Notes: generated by a model not told the origin, from the sequence alone. A stretch of 11,240 nt of DNA from Candidatus Falkowbacteria bacterium (GCA_903920975.1 CAIXNZ010000090.1:1-11240), one strand, 5' to 3'. Positions 7,360 to 11,240 are shown, numbered from the stretch's first letter. Numbers and translations are program-made.

Positions 7360-8619
7360 ATGTTTTCTTCGCGTAAGATAAAAAAAATTCAAGCGCTAGA
7401 AATTTTAGATTCTCGGGGGAATCCCACCCTTGAGGTTATTGTTTATTTAAAAAATGGCATTAGCGGCAAGGCAGCCGTACCTTCGGGCGCTTCAACTGGC
7501 AGTCATGAAGCTTTGGAATTGCGCGATAATGACAAGAAGCGTTTTGGCGGCAAAGGCGTGCAAAAAGCCATTAAGCATGTTAACACTGAAATTAATTTTT
7601 TACTGAAAAATCTTGATGTCACCAAGCAACAGGATATTGATAAACTTATGATTAAGCTTGACGACTCTGATAATAAAGCAAATTTGGGAGCCAATGCAAT
7701 GCTGGGCGTTTCTTTGGCCTGTGCAGTTGCAGGCGCAAAAGTGTTAAATTTACCTTTATATAAATATTTAAGGCAAGTTTACCACATACACTATAAAGCT
7801 TTTCGTCTGCCTCGGCCCATGATGAATGTTCTAAACGGCGGCAAGCATGCCAATTGGGCCACTGATATCCAGGAGTTTATGATTGTGCCAAAGTCAGGCT
7901 CTATAGCAAAAAGAGTACAAATTGGCAGTGAAATATTTCATGCTTTAGCCAATATTTTGGAGGAAAAGAACTATGCGACACTGGTTGGTGATGAGGGCGG
8001 TTTTGCTCCAAAATTAAAGAAAAATGAAATGGCCTTAGATTTATTAGTGATGGCTATAAAAAAAGCTGGGTATAAATTAACCAAAGATGTTGATTTGGCC
8101 ATTGATTGCGCAGCTTCAGAATTTTTTAAAAAAACCAATAAGACTTATAGGTTGAACGGAAAAAAATTTACAACAGGTCGTTTAATCAATCTATATAAAA
8201 AATGGGTAAAAAAATATAAATTAATTTCCATTGAAGACGGCTTGGCAGAAGATGATTGGCAGGGCTGGCGAAATCTGACTAAAAAAATAGGCGCCAAATG
8301 CATGTTGATTGGCGATGATTTATTTGTAACTAATAGCGAAAGATTACAAAAGGGGATTAATATACAAGCTGGCAATGCCATTCTAATTAAGCCAAATCAA
8401 ATAGGCACTCTGACTGAAACCGTGGCTACAATTTATCTGGCAAAAATGAATAATTATAAAGTGATAGTTTCTCATAGAAGCGGTGAAACTTGCGATTCAT
8501 TTATCTCTGATTTGACAGTGGCAGTTAACGCTGAATTTATTAAAGCCGGATCTTTGAGTCGGGGAGAGCGAGTAGCAAAATACAATCGGCTGATAGAAAT
8601 ACAACAAGAATTAATTTAA
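7360..8619 (+). CDS. eno: Enolase (phosphopyruvate hydratase)
   Basis: Motifs ILDSRGNPTLEV, SGASTGSHEALELRD, IKPNQIGTLTE, SHRSGET and SLSRGERVAKYN. Confidence 0.95.
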   Translation: MFSSRKIKKIQALEILDSRGNPTLEVIVYLKNGISGKAAVPSGASTGSHEALELRDNDKKRFGGKGVQKAIKHVNTEINFLLKNLDVTKQQDIDKLMIKLDDSDNKANLGANAMLGVSLACAVAGAKVLNLPLYKYLRQVYHIHYKAFRLPRPMMNVLNGGKHANWATDIQEFMIVPKSGSIAKRVQIGSEIFHALANILEEKNYATLVGDEGGFAPKLKKNEMALDLLVMAIKKAGYKLTKDVDLAIDCAASEFFKKTNKTYRLNGKKFTTGRLINLYKKWVKKYKLISIEDGLAEDDWQGWRNLTKKIGAKCMLIGDDLFVTNSERLQKGINIQAGNAILIKPNQIGTLTETVATIYLAKMNNYKVIVSHRSGETCDSFISDLTVAVNAEFIKAGSLSRGERVAKYNRLIEIQQELI

Positions 8620-8632
8620 TTTATAATAAAAA

Positions 8633-8658
8633 GGCCCGTCGGAAAGCGGGTTTTTTTT
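8633..8658 (+). terminator. Rho-independent terminator after eno
   Basis: Short GC stem CCCG (8635..8638) / CGGG (8647..8650) followed by an 8-T run. Confidence 0.6.
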
Positions 8659-8668
8659 ATTTGATGAA

Positions 8669-8786
8669 GAGCGAAAACGGCTGTTATCATTGTTGTAGAG
8701 ACGCGCCATGGCGCGTCTCTACGGCGTACGCAAACCGTTGTAGAGACGCATTGCAATGCGTCTCTACGTTCTGGCCGTTTTCGCCC
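8669..8786. repeat. Clamped composite palindromic element E2 (GCGAAAACGGC...GCCGTTTTCGC) enclosing two tandem 28-nt perfect palindromes
   Basis: The outer 11-bp inverted repeat is 8671..8681 / 8774..8784. The inner palindromes are GTAGAGACGCGCCATGGCGCGTCTCTAC (8695..8722) and GTAGAGACGCATTGCAATGCGTCTCTAC (8740..8767). Confidence 0.85.
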
Positions 8787-8795
8787 ACAAGAACC

Positions 8796-8824
8796 TTGAC
8801 AAAATTAAATTTTTGCTCTATACT
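8796..8824 (+). promoter_or_regulatory. Sigma70 promoter of the 63-aa ORF cassette
   Basis: TTGACA (8796..8801), 17 nt, TATACT (8819..8824). Confidence 0.75.
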
Positions 8825-8830
8825 TTTAAA

Positions 8831-9019
8831 TCGAACCTTAAAAATATCTCTTGCTGAAAGGACAAGAGATTAAAAATATTGACCTCCGGTTATTGTTTAT
8901 TCCTGTATCATCGAGAAAAACTTCTCCCCGGATTATGAACGCCAAAAATGAAAAGGGCGAACAAAAAAGGGGAAAGGACAGGAACAAACTAACCGGCAAG
9001 TAATTGCCAAGGAGGTCTT
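8831..9019 (+). promoter_or_regulatory. Structured 5' leader, copy L1 (SD-sequestering; candidate cis-regulatory RNA)
   Basis: Non-coding stretch between promoter and ATG. It has a hairpin 8846..8870. GACCTCCGGTT (8881..8891) is complementary to AACC (8991..8994) and to the SD GGAGGTC (9011..9017). A junction hairpin GGCAA-GTAA-TTGCC lies at 8995..9008. It is homologous to 9727..9898. Confidence 0.65.
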
Positions 9020-9211
9020 ATGTTGAGATTTTCGAAGATGAGCGATGAGGAGATTAAGGAGTTGATGGCTAAGCCTATATCCAAGGAAGACGCAGATAGG
9101 TTGCACAAGATCAATGAGGAAGACAGATGGATGCTTTCTATGTTTCTAATTAGTGAAGCATCCAGTGAAGAACGAGCGTCCGGTAAAGCGAAGCCAAAAC
9201 GCAAGAGATAA
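9020..9211 (+). CDS. 63-aa highly charged hypothetical protein with Lys/Arg-rich tail (KAKPKRKR)
   Basis: ORF track. AAGGAGGTC lies 2 nt upstream of the ATG. It has a dedicated promoter and terminator. Confidence 0.7.
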   Translation: MLRFSKMSDEEIKELMAKPISKEDADRLHKINEEDRWMLSMFLISEASSEERASGKAKPKRKR

Positions 9212-9223
9212 CTTTTGCATTCA

Positions 9224-9252
9224 AGGCCTGCTGCAAAGCGGGCCTTTTTTTT
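9224..9252 (+). terminator. Rho-independent terminator of the 63-aa cassette
   Basis: AGGCCTGC (9224..9231) / GCGGGCCT (9238..9245) followed by a T-run. It is near-identical to the terminator at 10388..10416. Confidence 0.8.
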
Positions 9253-9262
9253 ATTCCAATTA

Positions 9263-9291
9263 TTGACAAATATATTAAAATATGCTATTAT
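9263..9291 (+). promoter_or_regulatory. Sigma70 promoter of the small membrane-protein cassette
   Basis: TTGACA (9263..9268), 17 nt, TATTAT (9286..9291). Confidence 0.75.
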
Positions 9292-9322
9292 TTTACTAAA
9301 TTAATCGAAAAAGGAGGGAGTG

Positions 9323-9634
9323 ATGATACACTATTTTTTGGTCCATTATTTTCAGACGTACTTGCTTATCGGATTGATTCTGACCGCATCTCTGTATTTC
9401 ATTTTCCTGAATGAGTTCGTGAACGAGGACAAGAAAATCGCCGCCATCTTGTTCCTTATCATCATCGCACTAATCTGGCCACTTTATCCGCTGGCGTTCA
9501 TCGAGGCCCTGATTGTCAGGACCCAAATCATCGGTACAACCGTGGCCATTCTCTTCGGGTGTATGTATAACTACATGTGGCATGGAAGGTTTACGCCCTT
9601 TCCGCCTTCACTAAGTGAGGAAGAAGAACTCTAA
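9323..9634 (+). CDS. 103-aa integral membrane protein (about 3 TM helices) with acidic C-terminal tail SLSEEEEL
   Basis: AGGAGG at 9312..9317, 5 nt before ATG 9323; the GTG at 9320 is too close to the SD. Three hydrophobic stretches: YLLIGLILTASLYFIFL, IAAILFLIIIALIWPLYPLAFI, IIGTTVAILFGCMY. Confidence 0.75.
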   Translation: MIHYFLVHYFQTYLLIGLILTASLYFIFLNEFVNEDKKIAAILFLIIIALIWPLYPLAFIEALIVRTQIIGTTVAILFGCMYNYMWHGRFTPFPPSLSEEEEL

Positions 9635-9648
9635 AAGATTGCCATAAC

Positions 9649-9681
9649 ACAACCGGAGCTAAAAACTTCGGTTGTTTTTTT
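9649..9681 (+). terminator. Rho-independent terminator of the membrane-protein cassette
   Basis: ACAACCG (9649..9655) / CGGTTGT (9669..9675) followed by TTTTTT. Confidence 0.7.
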
Positions 9682-9691
9682 ATATTTTCTA

Positions 9692-9720
9692 TTGACAAAA
9701 TATAATTTTTGCGCTAAAAT
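9692..9720 (+). promoter_or_regulatory. Sigma70 promoter of paralogue cassette 3
   Basis: TTGACA (9692..9697), 17 nt, TAAAAT (9715..9720). Confidence 0.75.
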
Positions 9721-9726
9721 ACCAAA

Positions 9727-9898
9727 TCATGAATCTTAAAAATATCTCTTGCGAAAGGACAAGAGATTGGAAATATTGACCTCCGGTTATTGTTATTCCC
9801 AAACCCAAGCCGCCAAAAAAGAAGAGGCGAAAAGAAGTGGGGAAAGAATTGGGAACAATAACTCAAACCGGCAAAGTAATTTGCCAGGGAGGTCTGAA
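9727..9898 (+). promoter_or_regulatory. Structured 5' leader, copy L2 (SD-sequestering; candidate cis-regulatory RNA)
   Basis: Homologous to L1. It has a hairpin 9744..9767, anti-SD GACCTCCGGTT at 9778..9788, junction hairpin GGCAAA-GTAA-TTTGCC at 9870..9885 and SD GGAGGTC at 9888..9894. Confidence 0.65.
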
Positions 9899-10372
9899 AT
9901 GGAAATCGAATTACAAATTGTTAGTGTTGAAAAAACTCACACCGTAATAGTTGATTACAATAAATCTCTTAAAGAGATGATAGCGCTTGGTGATTTTGAC
10001 GGGGTCGATCCAGAGATTATCGAGGTTGAACCATTTATAATTCAGGGTACTGACCAGCGAACGATGGAACTCTATTTGGCTATATTCAATCGTCATCCGG
10101 TCTCTGATAATGAGGCTACTGACAAACTCAGAAATGATGGATTTGAGCCAGCCGGAATCGAGTTTATAATTGCGCTTGGCGCTGTATGGATGATGCCTTC
10201 CAGAGAAATAATGATCTGGTCACTTCAGGAAGGCTCGGGACATTATAATCCTGTTTGGCCAGGCCTTGCTGTCAACGAGAATGGAAAATGCATTGTACTT
10301 GATAGTTGGTCACCTTGGGACGACCATTGTCCTGGTCGCCTCGGCTATTATTTGGTTTTTAAAAAACAATAG
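9899..10372 (+). CDS. Paralogue family member P3 (157 aa), most divergent copy, ending YYLVFKKQ
   Basis: ATG at 9899 follows GGGAGGTC. The ORF-track start at 9749 (TTG) would translate the conserved leader, whose counterpart L1 has stops in that frame. Shared motifs: VIVDY, KEMI, FD, FIIQG, EL, PAGIEFIIALGAVW. Confidence 0.8.
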   Translation: MEIELQIVSVEKTHTVIVDYNKSLKEMIALGDFDGVDPEIIEVEPFIIQGTDQRTMELYLAIFNRHPVSDNEATDKLRNDGFEPAGIEFIIALGAVWMMPSREIMIWSLQEGSGHYNPVWPGLAVNENGKCIVLDSWSPWDDHCPGRLGYYLVFKKQ

Positions 10373-10387
10373 ATATTTTCGAAATTA

Positions 10388-10416
10388 AGGCCTGCTGTAA
10401 AAGCGGGCCTTTTTTT
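10388..10416 (+). terminator. Rho-independent terminator of paralogue cassette 3
   Basis: AGGCCTGC (10388..10395) / GCGGGCCT (10403..10410) followed by a T-run. Confidence 0.8.
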
Positions 10417-10426
10417 ATTGATTTAA

Positions 10427-10518
10427 AGCGAAAACGCTTTGGCCATATAAAACTCTAAAGAGTGAATTCCGTATTCGGATTTTAGGCTTTAGCCTTTTAT
10501 CTTAACAGCGTTTTCGCT
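10427..10518. repeat. Clamped composite palindromic element E3 (AGCGAAAACGCT...AGCGTTTTCGCT)
   Basis: The outer 12-bp perfect inverted repeat is 10427..10438 / 10507..10518. Inside are three mini-hairpins: ACTCT-AA-AGAGT, GAATTCCG...CGGATT and AGGCT-TT-AGCCT. Confidence 0.8.
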
Positions 10519-10539: not shown

Positions 10540-10568
10540 TTGAATATAGGTGCATTTTGGTGTAAAAT
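10540..10568 (+). promoter_or_regulatory. Possible promoter of gpmI, giving a near-leaderless mRNA
   Basis: TTGAAT (10540..10545), 17 nt, TAAAAT (10563..10568). The ATG at 10577 is only about 8 nt after the -10 and has no SD. Confidence 0.35.
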
Positions 10569-10576
10569 ATAGGTAT

Positions 10577-11240
10577 ATGAATAAGACAGAAAAATATAAA
10601 AATCTGCCTTTTGTTTTGGTTATTTTGGATGGCTGGGGCATTGCGCCAGCTAGTCCGAGTAATCCGATTTCCTTGGCTAAAACGCCCAATATGGATAATT
10701 TTTTGAAATTTTATCCAAATACAGAGCTAATAGCTTCTGGTGAAAAAGTTGGATTAAAAAAAGGCGAAGATGGCAATTCTGAGGCTGGCCATATGAATAT
10801 TGGAGCAGGCCGGATAGTTATGCAAGATCAGATGGCTATTACAAAAATGATTAAGAATAAATCATTTTTCAAAAATGAAGCCTTACTGTCTGCCATAAAA
10901 CATGCCAAAAAATACAGATCAAATATTCATGTCATGGGTTTACTTTCCAACGGCCAAAGCGCCCATTCTGATCCGGAACATTTGTATGCTCTTATAGATT
11001 TTTTCAAGAAACAAAAATTTCATAGAATTTATTTTCATCTTTTTACTGATGGTCGCGATTCTCCTCCGCACGCTGCCGCACGATTAGTCAGCAAATTGAT
11101 AAATAATTTTAAAAATAAAGAAATTATTTCAACAATCATGGGCAGATTTTATGCCATGGATAGAATAAAAAAATGGACCAGAACCGAGGCCGCGTATAAT
11201 GCCATGGTTTTGGGAAATGGATTAGTCTCTGATAATCCAT
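10577..11240 (+). CDS. gpmI: 2,3-bisphosphoglycerate-independent phosphoglycerate mutase, N-terminal part (runs off the window)
   Basis: Hand translation gives MNKTEKYKNLPFVLVILDGWGIAP...GNSEAGHMNIGAGR...HLFTDGRDSPP, which are iPGM hallmark motifs. It is absent from the ORF track because no stop is reached before the window end. Confidence 0.88.
   Translation, partial: MNKTEKYKNLPFVLVILDGWGIAPASPSNPISLAKTPNMDNFLKFYPNTELIASGEKVGLKKGEDGNSEAGHMNIGAGRIVMQDQMAITKMIKNKSFFKNEALLSAIKHAKKYRSNIHVMGLLSNGQSAHSDPEHLYALIDFFKKQKFHRIYFHLFTDGRDSPPHAAARLVSKLINNFKNKEIISTIMGRFYAMDRIKKWTRTEAAYNAMVLGNGLVSDNP

What the first reader, a model, noticed from the sequence alone, without database searches (positions are those of the whole stretch)
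8669..10518. Three-cassette accessory island inserted between eno and gpmI, bounded by related clamped palindromic elements
eno ends with its terminator at about 8658 and gpmI starts at 10577. Between them lie three independent promoter-ORF-terminator units: a 63-aa charged protein, a 103-aa 3-TM protein with an acidic tail, and family member P3. The island starts with element E2 (8669..8786) and ends with element E3 (10427..10518). Both are clamped by GCGAAAAC...GTTTTCGC. The sequence leading into each is similar (TTTTTTTTATTTGATGAAGAGCGAAAACGG after the eno terminator vs TTTTTTATTGATTTAAAGCGAAAACGC after the P3 terminator). This is the kind of duplication expected if an ancestral single element between eno and gpmI was the insertion or recombination target. 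The first and third cassettes also share near-identical leaders and terminators (AGGCCTGCTGCAAAGCGGGCCTTTTTTTT vs AGGCCTGCTGTAAAAGCGGGCCTTTTTTT) despite unrelated ORFs. That argues for cassette shuffling on a common scaffold. No integrase, transposase or recombinase is present in the window.
Basis: partly seen in the sequence, partly recalled or inferred. Interest (0 to 1): 0.66.

Follow-up and report, generated by a model that had tools for sequence, protein, structure and literature searches.

The report
Variable small-gene hotspot between eno and gpmI
In a tiny-genome (CPR, Falkowbacteria-like) bacterium, the gap between two glycolysis genes is a real hot spot where small self-contained genes come and go between related species, bordered by REP-like palindromic repeats; this is a known kind of genome plasticity and not a new mobile-element system.

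Summary
Between them lie three promoter–ORF–terminator units (s63, m103, P3) and two palindromes, E2 and E3, both clamped by GCGAAAAC…GTTTTCGC.

Comparison with relatives shows a genuine variable locus:
- Nine more distant relatives have a 66–244 nt gap.
- L001, L002, L081, L083 and L163 each carry different content.
- L001 has the predicted "empty site": one E2-like element, then the sequence that follows E3. The indel ends exactly at the two right clamps.

The E elements are not island-specific att sites. They belong to a dispersed family of nested palindromes resembling REP/BIME elements. The clamp is conserved, with compensated changes, and the interiors are interchangeable. Copies also occur at 1216–1304 and at other intergenic sites in five relatives. 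s63 cassettes occur without any E in L081 and L002.

The quoted flank similarity is only a shared terminator hairpin. The shared "scaffold" of s63 and P3 is a roughly 180–200-nt leader that sequesters the ribosome-binding site. A mosaic copy in L163 points to recombination between scaffold copies.

I found no integrase and no attC features. The closest known analogue is the Neisseria "minimal mobile element". Verdict: a new member of a known kind, of moderate to low interest.

The parts
7360..8619 (+). eno (enolase), the conserved left anchor gene
   Evidence: 419-aa ORF. It is 55-85% identical to enolase in 160 loci.
8628..8657 (+). eno intrinsic terminator, a member of the terminator hairpin family shared with s63 and P3
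   Evidence: Terminator scan. It is 67-78% identical to the other family members in the window, L001, L002 and L081.
8670..8785 (.). E2, a nested palindrome. The outer 12-bp clamp is (A)GCGAAAACGGC / GCCGTTTTCGC. It encloses two perfect 28-nt palindromes, GTAGAGAC-N12-GTCTCTAC, at 8695-8722 and 8740-8767.
   Evidence: I19. Orthologous copies lie after the eno terminator in L163, L001 and L083, with different self-complementary hairpin centres in L001 and L083.
8796..8824 (+). s63 promoter (TTGACA-17-TATACT)
   Evidence: 11 of 12 consensus positions. Conserved in L002, L081 and L163.
8825..9019 (+). Leader copy 1, a 5' UTR of about 195 nt. It has a 5' hairpin at 8846-8870. The anti-SD GACCUCC (8881-8887) pairs with the SD GGAGGUC (9011-9017).
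   Evidence: MFE -60 kcal/mol, z = -5.5. Consensus fold. CM score 176 bits. No Rfam match.
9020..9211 (+). s63, a 63-aa charged protein with a basic tail. Cargo gene 1.
   Evidence: ORF. Homologs occur only in L002, L081, L163 and same-species contigs. pN/pS is 0.45 against L002. No hit in any family library.
9223..9254 (+). s63 terminator (same hairpin family as the eno and P3 terminators)
   Evidence: (D1).
9263..9291 (+). m103 promoter (TTGACA-17-TATTAT, with extended TG)
   Evidence: 11 of 12 consensus positions.
9323..9634 (+). m103, a 103-aa predicted membrane protein. Cargo gene 2.
   Evidence: ORF. Its single diverged homolog (77%) is in L163, in the same island position. pN/pS is 0.23.
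9649..9675 (+). m103 terminator (a different hairpin family)
   Evidence: Conserved in L163.
9692..9720 (+). P3 promoter (TTGACA-17-TAAAAT)
   Evidence: 11 of 12 consensus positions.
9721..9898 (+). Leader copy 2, about 178 nt. It has a 5' hairpin at 9744-9767, the anti-SD at 9778-9784 and the SD at 9888-9894.
   Evidence: MFE -50.9 kcal/mol, z = -3.6. It is 88-90% identical to the s63 leaders of L081 and L002, with few indels. Best CM score, 199.5 bits.
9899..10372 (+). P3, a 157-aa divergent paralog of P1 (1442-1903) and P2 (2069-2563). Cargo gene 3.
   Evidence: Alignment. The family profile finds 2722 representative proteins at E<=1e-3. No Pfam, PHROG, PADLOC or NCBIfam match.
10387..10417 (+). 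P3 terminator (same hairpin family as the eno and s63 terminators)
   Evidence: (D1). It is 90-94% identical to the L081 s63 and eno terminators.
10427..10518 (.). E3, a nested palindrome. It has the same clamp, AGCGAAAACGC / GCGTTTTCGCT, around a unique interior.
   Evidence: The interior has no other copy in the fetched loci. Its right flank is homologous to the right flank of L001's single E element.
10540..10568 (+). gpmI promoter (TTGAAT-17-TAAAAT)
   Evidence: Conserved in L001, L002 and L081.
10577..11239 (+). gpmI (2,3-bisphosphoglycerate-independent phosphoglycerate mutase). The conserved right anchor gene; it runs off the contig.
   Evidence: iPGM_N E = 6e-41, Metalloenzyme E = 7e-17.
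1216..1304 (.). E1, a third member of the clamp family, outside the reported interval. The clamp is GGCGAAAACC / GGTTTTCGCC, around a palindrome of the type that yields spurious 'SLSKG/QAQHD' ORFs. It is followed by a T-run and the P1 promoter.
   Evidence: Orthologous clamps with different interiors are in L001 4582-4692 and L002 2767-2860.
4790..4861 (.). Unclamped copy of the palindrome that forms E1's interior, lying between rsmE and hypA. It shows that the interior is an independent repeat.
   Evidence: (D3, D14). The gap is about 0 nt in L001.

Best explanation
The eno-gpmI spacer of this Falkowbacteria-like (Patescibacteria/CPR) lineage is a recombinational hot spot of the "minimal mobile element" type. 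It is a fixed position between two conserved genes where short, self-sufficient transcription units are gained, lost and swapped between species-level lineages.

The window's version holds three such units (s63, m103, P3). I found no locally encoded integrase or transposase.

Turnover most likely proceeds by host recombination, homologous or microhomology-mediated, between repeated non-coding modules that punctuate the units. There are two kinds of module:

(i) The outer clamp of the E palindromes. The difference from L001 is exactly the DNA between the right clamp of E2 and the right clamp of E3.

(ii) The shared promoter/leader/terminator scaffold. P3 sits in an s63-type scaffold, and L163 has a mosaic of the two copies.

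The E elements themselves are composite palindromes resembling REP/BIME elements. A conserved 10-15-bp clamp (RGCGAAAAYGGC) encloses interchangeable inner hairpins. They lie at the 3' ends of transcription units and predate the cargo. E2 is orthologous in four genomes.

The shared leader is a 5' UTR of about 180-200 nt. Its long closing helix pairs an anti-SD with the ribosome-binding site, so it most likely holds translation of s63 and P3 under a common control.

Shown: the anatomy, the variability, the breakpoints at the clamps, the mosaicism and the purifying selection on the cargo.

Inferred: that recombination at the clamps or scaffolds is the mechanism, the direction of each event, and the regulatory role of the leader.
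For: Variability:
- The spacer is 66-244 nt in nine relatives.
- It is 222, 850, 1249 and 1957 nt in the in-group, with different content each time.
- Phylogenetic frame: the in-group shows 77-91% concatenated identity, and all other relatives about 68%.

Breakpoints:
- The window minus 8785-10517 is colinear with L001 at 78-85% identity across the junction.
- The DNA to the right of the E2 clamp differs in window/L163, L001 and L083, starting directly after GTTTTCGCC.

Clamp family:
- Ten or more elements at orthologous and non-orthologous intergenic sites in seven lineages.
- Compensated clamp changes occur (C>T/G>A in L002 and L091; C>G/G>C in L001). Interiors are unrelated.

Scaffolds:
- The four scaffolds are 88-91% identical.
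- L163's s63 promoter matches the P3 version from the -10 to about +25.
- L163 against the window is 93% identical in eno and 99.5% over about 400 nt of leader+s63+terminator. Its m103 is 81% identical, with pS 0.64.

Cargo: coding, with pN/pS 0.45 and 0.23.

Leader: fold z-scores of -5.5 and -3.6, with the SD inside the closing helix in all five full copies.

Generality: other spacers of the same block are also variable and hold solitary small genes.

Precedents:
- Minimal mobile elements are clusters of three or fewer genes with alternative loci at syntenic sites (PMC1797815).
- REPs nested in conserved outer palindromes (PMC3733652).
Against: - No recombination intermediate or polymorphism is seen within the window's own species. 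Eight or more assemblies at >=99.5% identity all share one arrangement.
- The mosaic evidence rests on one 1.6-kb metagenomic contig (L163), which could be a chimeric assembly.
- Insertion and deletion relative to L001 cannot be told apart. s63 is present in three in-group lineages and absent in one, so each scenario needs one step.
- The coincidence of breakpoints with clamps rests on a single comparison. It might simply reflect that E elements sit at the borders of transcription units.
- The leader structure has only thermodynamic support. The copies are too similar for covariation: 2 of 36 pairs show double changes, and those are weak inner pairs.
- The rest of the genome is unseen, because the contig is the window. 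A dedicated recombinase elsewhere cannot be excluded.
Confidence: 0.6

Rival explanations
1. The E elements are functional structural elements, such as terminator extensions, transcriptional insulators or mRNA 3'-end stabilisers, as proposed for REPs. They are kept by selection at the ends of transcription units. They play no part in cassette turnover, which happens by generic illegitimate recombination or horizontal replacement through the flanking genes. The match between the L001 breakpoints and the clamps is a by-product of where E elements sit.
For: - All elements lie just downstream of a stop codon or terminator and upstream of the next promoter.
- E1-type copies and L002 18986 are followed by TTTTTGTTT, like intrinsic terminators.
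- Compensated clamp changes fit selection on pairing.
- s63 cassettes exist without E elements in L081 and L002.
- REPs are reported mainly downstream of coding regions and are thought to act as RNA elements (PMC3733652).
Against: - E2 and E3 follow complete canonical terminators and lack a T-run of their own. A terminator role is therefore redundant there.
- The folds are equally stable on both strands, which fits DNA-level palindromes as well as RNA.
- Three different right flanks begin exactly at the end of the E2 clamp.
- The L001 junction falls within the 9-nt repeat CGTTTTCGC.
Confidence: 0.22
2. This is an integron-like cassette platform. E elements act as attC-like recombination sites, with conserved inverted ends and a variable interior. 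A site-specific recombinase encoded elsewhere in the genome inserts and excises the DNA between two E elements as a circle. This is the mechanistic core of the first reader's idea.
For: - The architecture, with conserved complementary ends and a variable centre of 87-118 nt, is superficially like attC.
- The inner ends of the clamp read ...AAC / GTT....
- The difference from L001 equals one unit bounded by two right clamps.
- No recombinase needs to be adjacent, as in attC clusters that lack an integrase (my own knowledge).
Against: - The R-box consensus is not met. CGAAAAC against RYYYAAC, and GTTTTCG against GTTRRRY, agree only at AAC and GTT (read from the sequence).
- The clamps are uninterrupted perfect helices, without extrahelical bases or an unpaired spacer.
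- There are two E elements for three cassettes. s63 and m103 have none.
- Each cassette has its own strong promoter and terminator.
- E elements occur singly between housekeeping genes with no cargo (L087 hypA-pgk).
- s63 occupies the site without E elements in L081 and L002.
- No integrase was found in the window.
Confidence: 0.07
3. The shared leader marks a regulon rather than a shuffling scaffold. It would be a cis-regulatory RNA, either a riboswitch or a protein-binding leader, placed independently in front of genes that need co-regulation. The similarity between cassettes 1 and 3 would then reflect functional constraint, not duplication or recombination.
For: - Stable, similar folds with SD sequestration in every copy.
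- The leader is kept at 88-91% identity across lineages whose eno differs at pS 0.66-0.83.
- It stands in front of two unrelated ORFs.
Against: - All known copies lie in this single spacer. There are none elsewhere in 627 kb of related loci by covariance-model search, and none in the JGI metagenome pattern scan.
- The promoter and the terminator are co-duplicated with it. That indicates duplication of a whole unit.
- There is no covariation and no Rfam family.
Confidence: 0.15
4. It is an ancient fixed locus or an assembly artefact, with the three genes being ordinary conserved neighbours of eno and gpmI.
For: All assemblies of the window's own species show the same order.
Against: - None of about 25 relatives with the conserved block has m103 or P3 here, and only three lineages have s63.
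- s63 and m103 each have only one or two homolog clusters among 5.8 billion proteins.
- The arrangement recurs in independent assemblies from several studies, so it is not an artefact.
Confidence: 0.02

Closest known systems
Minimal mobile elements (MMEs) of Neisseria (Saunders & Snyder 2002, as described in PMC1797815)
   Same: - A defined spacer between two conserved genes carries alternative small gene sets (three or fewer genes) at the same syntenic place in different lineages.
- No associated mobility genes were found.
- Exchange is attributed to recombination.
- Intergenic repeat elements are nearby.
   Different: - The host is a CPR bacterium, whose competence and recombination biology are unknown.
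- The cargo is tiny orphan genes, each with its own promoter and terminator.
- Variation is seen between species-level lineages, not between strains of one species.
- Part of the exchange appears to use internal repeated regulatory scaffolds and palindrome clamps, not only the flanking genes.
REP/BIME elements, specifically GTAG-tagged REPs nested inside conserved outer palindromes (Di Nocera et al. 2013, PMC3733652)
   Same: - Palindromic units of 28 nt begin with GTAG and occur singly or in pairs.
- They are intergenic and downstream of coding regions.
- They are embedded in a conserved outer palindrome. As in Anabaena variabilis and Halothiobacillus neapolitanus, that outer palindrome is not found empty.
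- The stem and loop sequence within a family is heterogeneous.
   Different: - GTAG is paired with a 3' CTAC and is not an unpaired tag.
- The same clamp also encloses quite different palindromes (the 'SLSKG' type, the E3 type and the L087 type).
- The genome copy number and any RAYT transposase are unknown.
- The phylum (Patescibacteria) was not among those surveyed in that paper.
Integron gene cassettes / attC sites, including attC clusters lacking an integrase
   Same: Palindromic sites with conserved complementary ends and a variable centre; cargo of small orphan genes; one unit delimited by two such sites.
   Different: - The core-site consensus, the extrahelical bases, one site per cassette, promoterless cassettes and an integrase are all absent or not met.
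- E elements also occur without any cargo.
SD-sequestering 5' UTRs (RNA thermometers and translational riboswitches)
   Same: A long helix pairs an anti-SD (GACCUCC) with the SD (GGAGGUC) just upstream of the start codon. An independent 5' hairpin precedes it.
   Different: - No match to any Rfam family.
- Much longer (about 180-200 nt) than ROSE or fourU thermometers.
- No ligand-pocket-like conserved core can be recognised from five near-identical copies.
- Known only from one spacer in three lineages.

Membership tests
Integron cassette array / attC | attC ends fit the inverse core site RYYYAAC and the core site GTTRRRY | tested here: not met
   The clamp ends read CGAAAAC and GTTTTCG. Only the AAC and GTT triplets fit (sequence). 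The consensus is from my own knowledge of the integron literature.
Integron cassette array / attC | An imperfect hairpin with extrahelical bases and an unpaired central spacer between the R and L boxes | tested here: not met
   The clamps are uninterrupted perfect helices of 10-15 bp.
Integron cassette array / attC | One attC at the 3' end of every cassette; cassettes mostly promoterless | tested here: not met
   There are two E elements for three units. Each unit has a promoter matching 11 of 12 positions and its own terminator.
Integron cassette array / attC | An IntI tyrosine recombinase with attI and Pc | tested here: inconclusive
   None in the window. The rest of the genome is not available, because the contig equals the window.
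REP / BIME (GTAG superfamily) | Palindromic units of 20-40 bp | tested here: met
   The inner hairpins are 28-nt palindromes at 8695-8722 and 8740-8767.
REP / BIME (GTAG superfamily) | An unpaired GTAG (or CGTC) tag at one end | tested here: inconclusive
   GTAG is present at the 5' end but is paired with CTAC at the 3' end, so the unit is symmetric. Definition from PMC3733652.
REP / BIME (GTAG superfamily) | Located in intergenic DNA, mostly downstream of coding regions | tested here: met
   All ten or more elements lie after a stop codon or terminator.
REP / BIME (GTAG superfamily) | High copy number per genome (tens to thousands) | not testable with these tools
   Only an 11-kb contig is available. 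About 9 clamped elements are seen in about 63 kb of in-group DNA.
REP / BIME (GTAG superfamily) | An associated RAYT (Y1 HUH) transposase gene flanked by REPs | not testable with these tools
   None in the window. No recurrent transposase-like neighbour lies next to the same hairpin in viral contigs.
Minimal mobile element-type hot spot | Alternative gene content at one syntenic site between two conserved genes | tested here: met
   Spacer table and junction sequences.
Minimal mobile element-type hot spot | Few genes (three or fewer) and no mobility genes in the element | tested here: met
   Three small ORFs with no recombinase domains.
Minimal mobile element-type hot spot | Exchange by homologous recombination of imported DNA | tested here: inconclusive
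   The mosaic identity profile of L163 (93%, 99.5% and 81%) and its mosaic promoter support recombination. A chimeric assembly is not excluded, and DNA uptake is untestable.
MITE | 70-300 bp, terminal inverted repeats, no coding capacity | tested here: met
   87-142 nt with 10-16-bp terminal inverted repeats.
MITE | Target-site duplication, and a parent IS with the same inverted repeats | tested here: inconclusive
   No consistent duplication is seen at the element ends. No longer element with the clamp turned up in the fetched loci or in viral contigs.
Any Rfam RNA family (leader or E elements) | A covariance-model match at or near the gathering score | tested here: not met
   Nothing in 8669-10518 reaches a threshold. 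The only hits there are terminator look-alikes (Trp and Phe leaders, E 0.18-0.66). Nothing was found in the relatives either.
TIGR stem-loop arrays (TIGR-Tas) | A tandem array of stem-loops with dual 8-12-nt spacers flanked by box C/D motifs, next to a Nop-domain Tas gene | tested here: not met
   The hairpins are perfect palindromes without spacer loops. There are one or two per site, and no Tas gene. Definition from PMC12045711.

The most novel reading that the evidence does not exclude
The conserved clamp (RGCGAAAAYGGC...GCCRTTTTCGCY) could be the recognition site of an unidentified recombinase encoded elsewhere in these CPR genomes. Together with the portable promoter-leader-terminator scaffold, it would form a cassette-capture platform analogous to an integron but mechanistically distinct, with promoter-bearing cassettes and palindromes that have interchangeable cores. 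In that case the eno-gpmI and h74-hydL spacers would be its landing pads. A second, weaker novel reading is that the 180-200-nt leader is a new ligand- or factor-responsive translational switch.
Probability: 0.07. Interest if true: 0.75.

Novelty: new member of a known kind. Interest (0 to 1): 0.33.

Why it matters
CPR/Patescibacteria genomes are small and are thought to be streamlined, and how they acquire and trial new genes is poorly understood. This locus shows that even inside a tightly conserved glycolysis/hydrogenase block there are fixed positions where orphan small genes turn over between close lineages. Each such gene comes with its own promoter, leader and terminator. The turnover appears to need no dedicated mobile-element machinery and is associated with REP-like nested palindromes.

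The locus offers a concrete, PCR-sized site (eno to gpmI) for following gene gain and loss in uncultivated CPR populations. It also adds a palindromic-repeat family and a candidate translational control leader from a phylum in which neither has been catalogued. It does not reveal a new kind of system.

Tried and rejected
1. Integron/attC model. The core-site consensus, bulged hairpin, one site per cassette, promoterless cassettes and an integrase were all not met.

2. TIGR-Tas stem arrays. I considered these because they occur in CPR and have variable palindromes. I rejected them because there are no spacer loops, no array and no Tas gene.

3. Known RNA family for the leader, the E elements or the ORF-less units of L163 and L081. 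No Rfam match was found.

4. Wider distribution of the leader.
   - A structure-aware pattern scan of JGI metagenome contigs gave 0 hits.
   - A covariance model over 627 kb of related loci found only the known copies.

5. Phage or plasmid-like origin of the island.
   - blastn against phage records gave no match.
   - PHROGs and PADLOC gave nothing for any cargo protein.

6. Function of the P family.
   - Only a sub-threshold Pfam hit for P1 (DUF5726, E 0.0014); none for P2 or P3. No NCBIfam hit.
   - The only PDB sequence match was at E 0.075.
   - The AlphaFold model (pTM 0.75) gave only non-significant resemblance to C-type-lectin-like folds (E >= 0.08, TM about 0.35).
   - Function remains unknown.

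7. A small GGCG..CGCC hairpin as a constant partner of the GTAGAGAC hairpin. It occurred in 4 of 45 contexts against 0.8 expected, from only two element types, which is too weak.

8. An apparent population variant, L285. It turned out to be a scaffolding gap of N's.

9. The quoted flank similarity as evidence of a duplicated target. It is not significant once the shared terminator hairpin is excluded.

10. Polarising the L001 event as insertion or deletion from the phylogeny. It is equally parsimonious either way.

Full report
**1. What is in the sequence**

The window is a whole 11.2-kb metagenomic contig from a Patescibacteria (CPR) bacterium near Candidatus Falkowbacteria. Its eno is 85% identical to that of JAFGMD010000034 (L001) and 82% identical to that of JAQTMG010000002 (L002). 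The gene order is:

zinc-ribbon ORF, h117, h74, [E1, P1, P2], NiFe-hydrogenase large subunit, rsmE, hypA, pgk, h71, SIMPL, eno, [E2, s63, m103, P3, E3], gpmI.

- eno ends at 8619, with a terminator at 8628-8657.
- gpmI starts at 10577, behind its own promoter at 10540-10568.
- Between them the promoter/terminator scan finds three TTGACA-17-TAnnnT promoters, each matching 11 of 12 positions. They lie at 8796, 9263 and 9692.
- It also finds three intrinsic terminators, at 9223, 9649 and 10387. They frame ORFs of 63, 103 and 157 aa.
- E2 (8670-8785) and E3 (10427-10518) are strong palindromes (z = -8.2 and -6.1). Both are closed by GCGAAAAC...GTTTTCGC.

**2. Is it more than chance?**

- Exact GCGAAAAC occurs six times in the window, always as inverted pairs: 1217/1296, 8671/8777 and 10428/10510.
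- In about 1.15 Mb of other loci the 8-mer occurs 41 times. That predicts about 0.4 per window. The clamp is real.
- There is also a third element, E1 at 1216-1304.
  - The 50 nt to the left of the two clamps beat 1999 of 2000 dinucleotide shuffles, but only because both contain the same terminator hairpin.
  - The T-tail-to-clamp stretch alone is not significant (170 of 2000).
  - The right flanks are unrelated (597 of 2000).

**3. Comparative test of the "island"**

I fetched 160 eno loci from reference genomes and JGI metagenomes, plus contigs encoding homologs of s63 and m103. The block h74...eno-gpmI is syntenic in about 25 relatives.

Spacer lengths:

| Group | eno→gpmI spacer |
|---|---|
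| Nine relatives at about 66-75% protein identity | 66-244 nt |
| L005 and L008 (unrelated aminotransferase/two-component operon) | 3.4 and 5.6 kb |
| In-group: L001 / L002 / L081 / window | 222 / 850 / 1249 / 1957 nt |

Concatenated identities place the window nearest L081 (85%), then L002 (83%). L001 and L083 form a sister pair at 80-82% from the window. Everything else is at about 68%.

Content of the spacer in each in-group lineage:

- **L001:** terminator, one E2-like element, then the gpmI promoter.
- **L083:** E2 ortholog, then unrelated sequence before the contig ends.
- **L002:** a different palindrome, then promoter-leader-s63, then a palindrome of about 200 nt.
- **L081:** two reverse-strand small paralogs, a short promoter-hairpin unit, then promoter-leader-s63, with no E element.
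- **L163**, a close relative (eno 3' end 93% identical in DNA): E2, s63, another palindrome, an ORF-less promoter/110-nt/terminator unit, an m103 homolog (77%), and then a third copy of the leader.

The interval is therefore a true variable hot spot. This refutes the "ancient fixed locus" alternative. Within the window's own species, however, eight or more assemblies from several studies are 99.5-100% identical and share one arrangement. One apparent variant, L285, is a scaffolding gap.

**4. The predicted empty site**

- After the eno terminator comes GGGCGAAAACGGCC...GTCGTTTTCGCC with an E2-type interior.
- This is followed directly by AAATTGAACGAATTTATTTATTTGAATATAGG. That is the sequence which follows E3, not E2, in the window.
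- Deleting 8785-10517 in silico gives a sequence colinear with L001 at 78-85% identity across the junction, with only three gap positions.
- The event therefore has both endpoints in or at the end of the 9-nt direct repeat CGTTTTCGC, formed by the right clamps.
- Independently, three different sequences start immediately after the E2 clamp in window/L163, L001 and L083.

Whether L001 lost the cargo or the window lineage gained it cannot be decided. s63 is present in window, L081 and L002 and absent in L001, so each scenario needs one step. m103 and P3 are absent from L081, the window's nearest relative, and from L002. They are therefore probably gains on the window/L163 branch.

**5. What the E elements are**

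The clamp is not tied to this island. Elements with the same clamp (RGCGAAAAYGGC / GCCRTTTTCGCY) occur at these sites:

- window E1;
- L001 4582-4692 and L002 2767-2860, both at the orthologous h74→P-gene site;
- L002 18986-19077;
- L087 5677-5791, between hypA and pgk in a genome whose eno is only 70% identical;
- L091 12585-12729.

The clamp shows compensated changes: C>T with G>A in L002 and L091, and C>G with G>C in L001.

The interiors are interchangeable modules:

- one or two 28-nt perfect palindromes of the form GTAGAGAC-N12-GTCTCTAC;
- a palindrome of the type that yields spurious "SLSKG/QAQHD" ORFs. It also exists unclamped at 4790-4861, in L163 838-971 and in L002 11308-11395;
- unique hairpins (E3 and L087).

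At the orthologous E1 site the three genomes have three different interiors inside the same clamp.

In the GTAGAGAC hairpins the 12-14-nt centre differs completely between copies, yet it is perfectly self-complementary each time:

- GCGCCATGGCGC
- GCATTGCAATGC
- AGGGTATACCCT
- GCGGTGCACCGC
- CCCGCATTTGCGGG

This is what intramolecular template switching at quasi-palindromes would maintain. That is my inference from the established quasipalindrome-correction mechanism and was not tested here.

Folding is equally stable on both strands.

This architecture has a published precedent. Di Nocera et al. describe GTAG-tagged REP units or dimers "inserted within long palindromic sequences" with conserved arms. 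In two of the species they studied, the outer palindromes were not found empty (PMC3733652).

I therefore file the E elements as composite palindromes resembling REP/BIME elements, a new family in a phylum that paper did not survey. Two caveats apply:

- GTAG is paired here and is not an unpaired tag.
- Copy number and any RAYT transposase cannot be assessed from an 11-kb contig.

**6. The shared scaffold and the leader**

- The s63 and P3 units share the promoter, a 5' UTR of about 180-200 nt and the terminator.
- Both leaders fold alike. They have a 5' hairpin (AUCUCUUGC...GACAAGAGAU). A long helix then pairs GACCUCC with the Shine-Dalgarno GGAGGUC and encloses a purine-rich arm and a small hairpin. 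MFE is -60 and -51 kcal/mol, with z = -5.5 and -3.6.
- The same leader precedes s63 in L002, L081 and L163.
- All pairwise identities are 88-91%. The window's P3 copy is as close to the L002 and L081 s63 leaders as those are to each other. The window and L163 s63 copy carries about 40 extra nucleotides.
- The P3 unit therefore sits in an "ancestral-type" s63 scaffold.
- The copies are too similar for covariation. Only 2 of 36 pairs show double changes.
- No Rfam family matches.
- A covariance model finds no further copy in 627 kb of related loci. A pattern scan of JGI metagenomes finds none.
- The leader is thus confined to this one spacer in one sub-clade. That argues for local duplication of a whole transcription unit, not a genome-wide regulon.

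Direct signs of recombination between copies come from L163:

- Its s63 promoter matches the P3-scaffold version from the -10 to about +25, and the s63 version elsewhere.
- Its identity to the window runs 93% in the eno 3' end, then 99.5% over about 400 nt of leader+s63+terminator, then 81% in m103 with pS 0.64.
- A chimeric assembly of this 1.6-kb contig cannot be excluded. It would, however, require two switches.

**7. The cargo**

- s63 and m103 evolve as coding sequence. pN/pS is 0.45 and 0.23, against 0.14-0.15 for eno.
- Both are extremely narrow in distribution, with one or two homolog clusters among 5.8 billion proteins.
- P3 is a divergent member (29-40% identity) of the P1/P2 family. 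That family has 2722 representative clusters at E<=1e-3 and often occurs as tandem domains.
- None of the cargo matches Pfam, NCBIfam, PHROGs or PADLOC at threshold.
- A P1 model (pTM 0.75) has only non-significant resemblance to C-type-lectin-like folds.
- The island has no similarity to phage records.

**8. Generality**

- The h74→hydL spacer is as variable as eno→gpmI, ranging from -8 to 2476 nt, and holds the P1 and P2 units.
- Three other spacers vary occasionally.
- In L002 they hold solitary 23S_rRNA_IVP and PDDEXK_3 (GxxExxY) genes.
- Placing small stand-alone genes and palindromes between housekeeping genes is thus a habit of the lineage.

**9. Mechanism and comparison**

The best-supported reading is a hot spot of the "minimal mobile element" type. 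That term describes clusters of three or fewer genes with alternative loci at syntenic positions and no mobility genes (PMC1797815). Here the turnover is helped by recombination between repeated non-coding modules, namely the palindrome clamps and the promoter/leader/terminator scaffolds.

The integron analogy fails on every testable defining feature: core-site consensus, bulged hairpin, one site per cassette, promoterless cassettes and a nearby integrase. TIGR-Tas stem arrays also do not fit.

A dedicated recombinase encoded elsewhere cannot be excluded. I give that reading about 7%.

**10. Verdict**

However, the E elements are generic repeats resembling REP elements and not island-specific recombination targets, and the flank similarity is only a shared terminator. 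This is a new member of known kinds, of moderate to low interest.

Noticed in passing
window 8695-8722 and 8740-8767; viral loci L164-L243: The inner hairpin GTAGAGAC-N12-GTCTCTAC is widespread outside CPR. In the 80 loci kept:
- 27 of 94 hits have a perfectly palindromic centre.
- 55 hits have a stem of at least 12 bp.
- These fall in 45 unrelated contexts, in contigs of 37-64% GC.
One hit (L210) has the same centre, GCATTGCAATGC, as the window. In L170 the hairpins sit at the 3' ends of the major-capsid gene and a 108-aa gene. No recurrent transposase lies next to them. This hairpin class, with a conserved base and a variable top, is not named in the literature I could search.
   Followed up: partly
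window 1347-1400 (also 1985-2016); L001 4735-4785; L002 2895-2950: The P1-type genes share a different conserved 5' UTR. It has a small hairpin with compensated changes (CCATATC..GGTATGG, CCTTGCC..GGCAGGG, CCCTGCC..GGCAAGG). An invariant TCTGGCCGCGAATACCGGCTGG follows. This may be a second lineage-specific cis-regulatory motif. There is no Rfam match.
   Followed up: no
window 4790-4861, 1227-1294, about 2660-2745; L163 838-971; L002 11308-11395; L091 12600-12715: A palindromic repeat with ends TTGTCAYNCTGAGC...GCTCAGNRTGACAA produces the spurious ORFs 'VTLSLSKG', 'LRQAQHD' and 'PFDKLRVT'. It is inserted between rsmE and hypA in the window, where L001 has about 0 nt. It gives weak Rfam look-alike hits to AaHKsRNA41, far below threshold. 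It behaves as an independent MITE-like element that can also sit inside the E clamp.
   Followed up: partly
window 9200-9223 versus 9730-9753 (and 8846-8854): The last codons of s63 (AAACGCAAGAGATAA, encoding KRKR-stop) contain GCAAGAGAU. That sequence is complementary to the 5' arm (AUCUCUUGC) of the leader's first hairpin. It is conserved in all s63 orthologs. It could be a 5'-3' interaction within the s63 mRNA, or coincidence.
   Followed up: no
L163 977-1130; L081 4424-4535: Two ORF-less mini-units lie inside the same spacer in relatives. Each has a consensus promoter, a structured stretch of 80-110 nt (z = -2.8 and -3.2) and an intrinsic terminator. They are candidate small RNAs. There is no Rfam match.
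   Followed up: partly
L001 11483-12007: L001's gpmI is only 67% identical to the window's, whereas the other in-group members are 83-89% identical to it. Its promoter region is still about 85% identical. A recombination breakpoint or accelerated divergence seems to begin just inside gpmI.
   Followed up: partly
L002 5218-5568, 6363-6911, 8541-8912: Other spacers of the conserved block in L002 each hold one solitary small gene: 23S_rRNA_IVP (E = 1e-23), an unknown 182-aa ORF, and PDDEXK_3/GxxExxY (E = 5e-33). The first is bracketed by GAAGCTTGAAGCTT repeats.
   Followed up: partly
window 1442-1903, 2069-2563, 9899-10372: The P family has no Pfam or NCBIfam match at threshold, yet it has 2722 representative clusters in public data, many as two- or three-domain proteins and one fused to DnaJ. 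The predicted fold (pTM 0.75) has only non-significant similarity to C-type-lectin-like domains.
   Followed up: partly
L081 3789-4420: Copies of the + strand terminator hairpin GGCCTGCTGTAAAAGCGGGCC separate two reverse-strand paralogous small genes. In that position the hairpin cannot act as their terminator. The tandem duplication unit evidently included the eno-type terminator.
   Followed up: no
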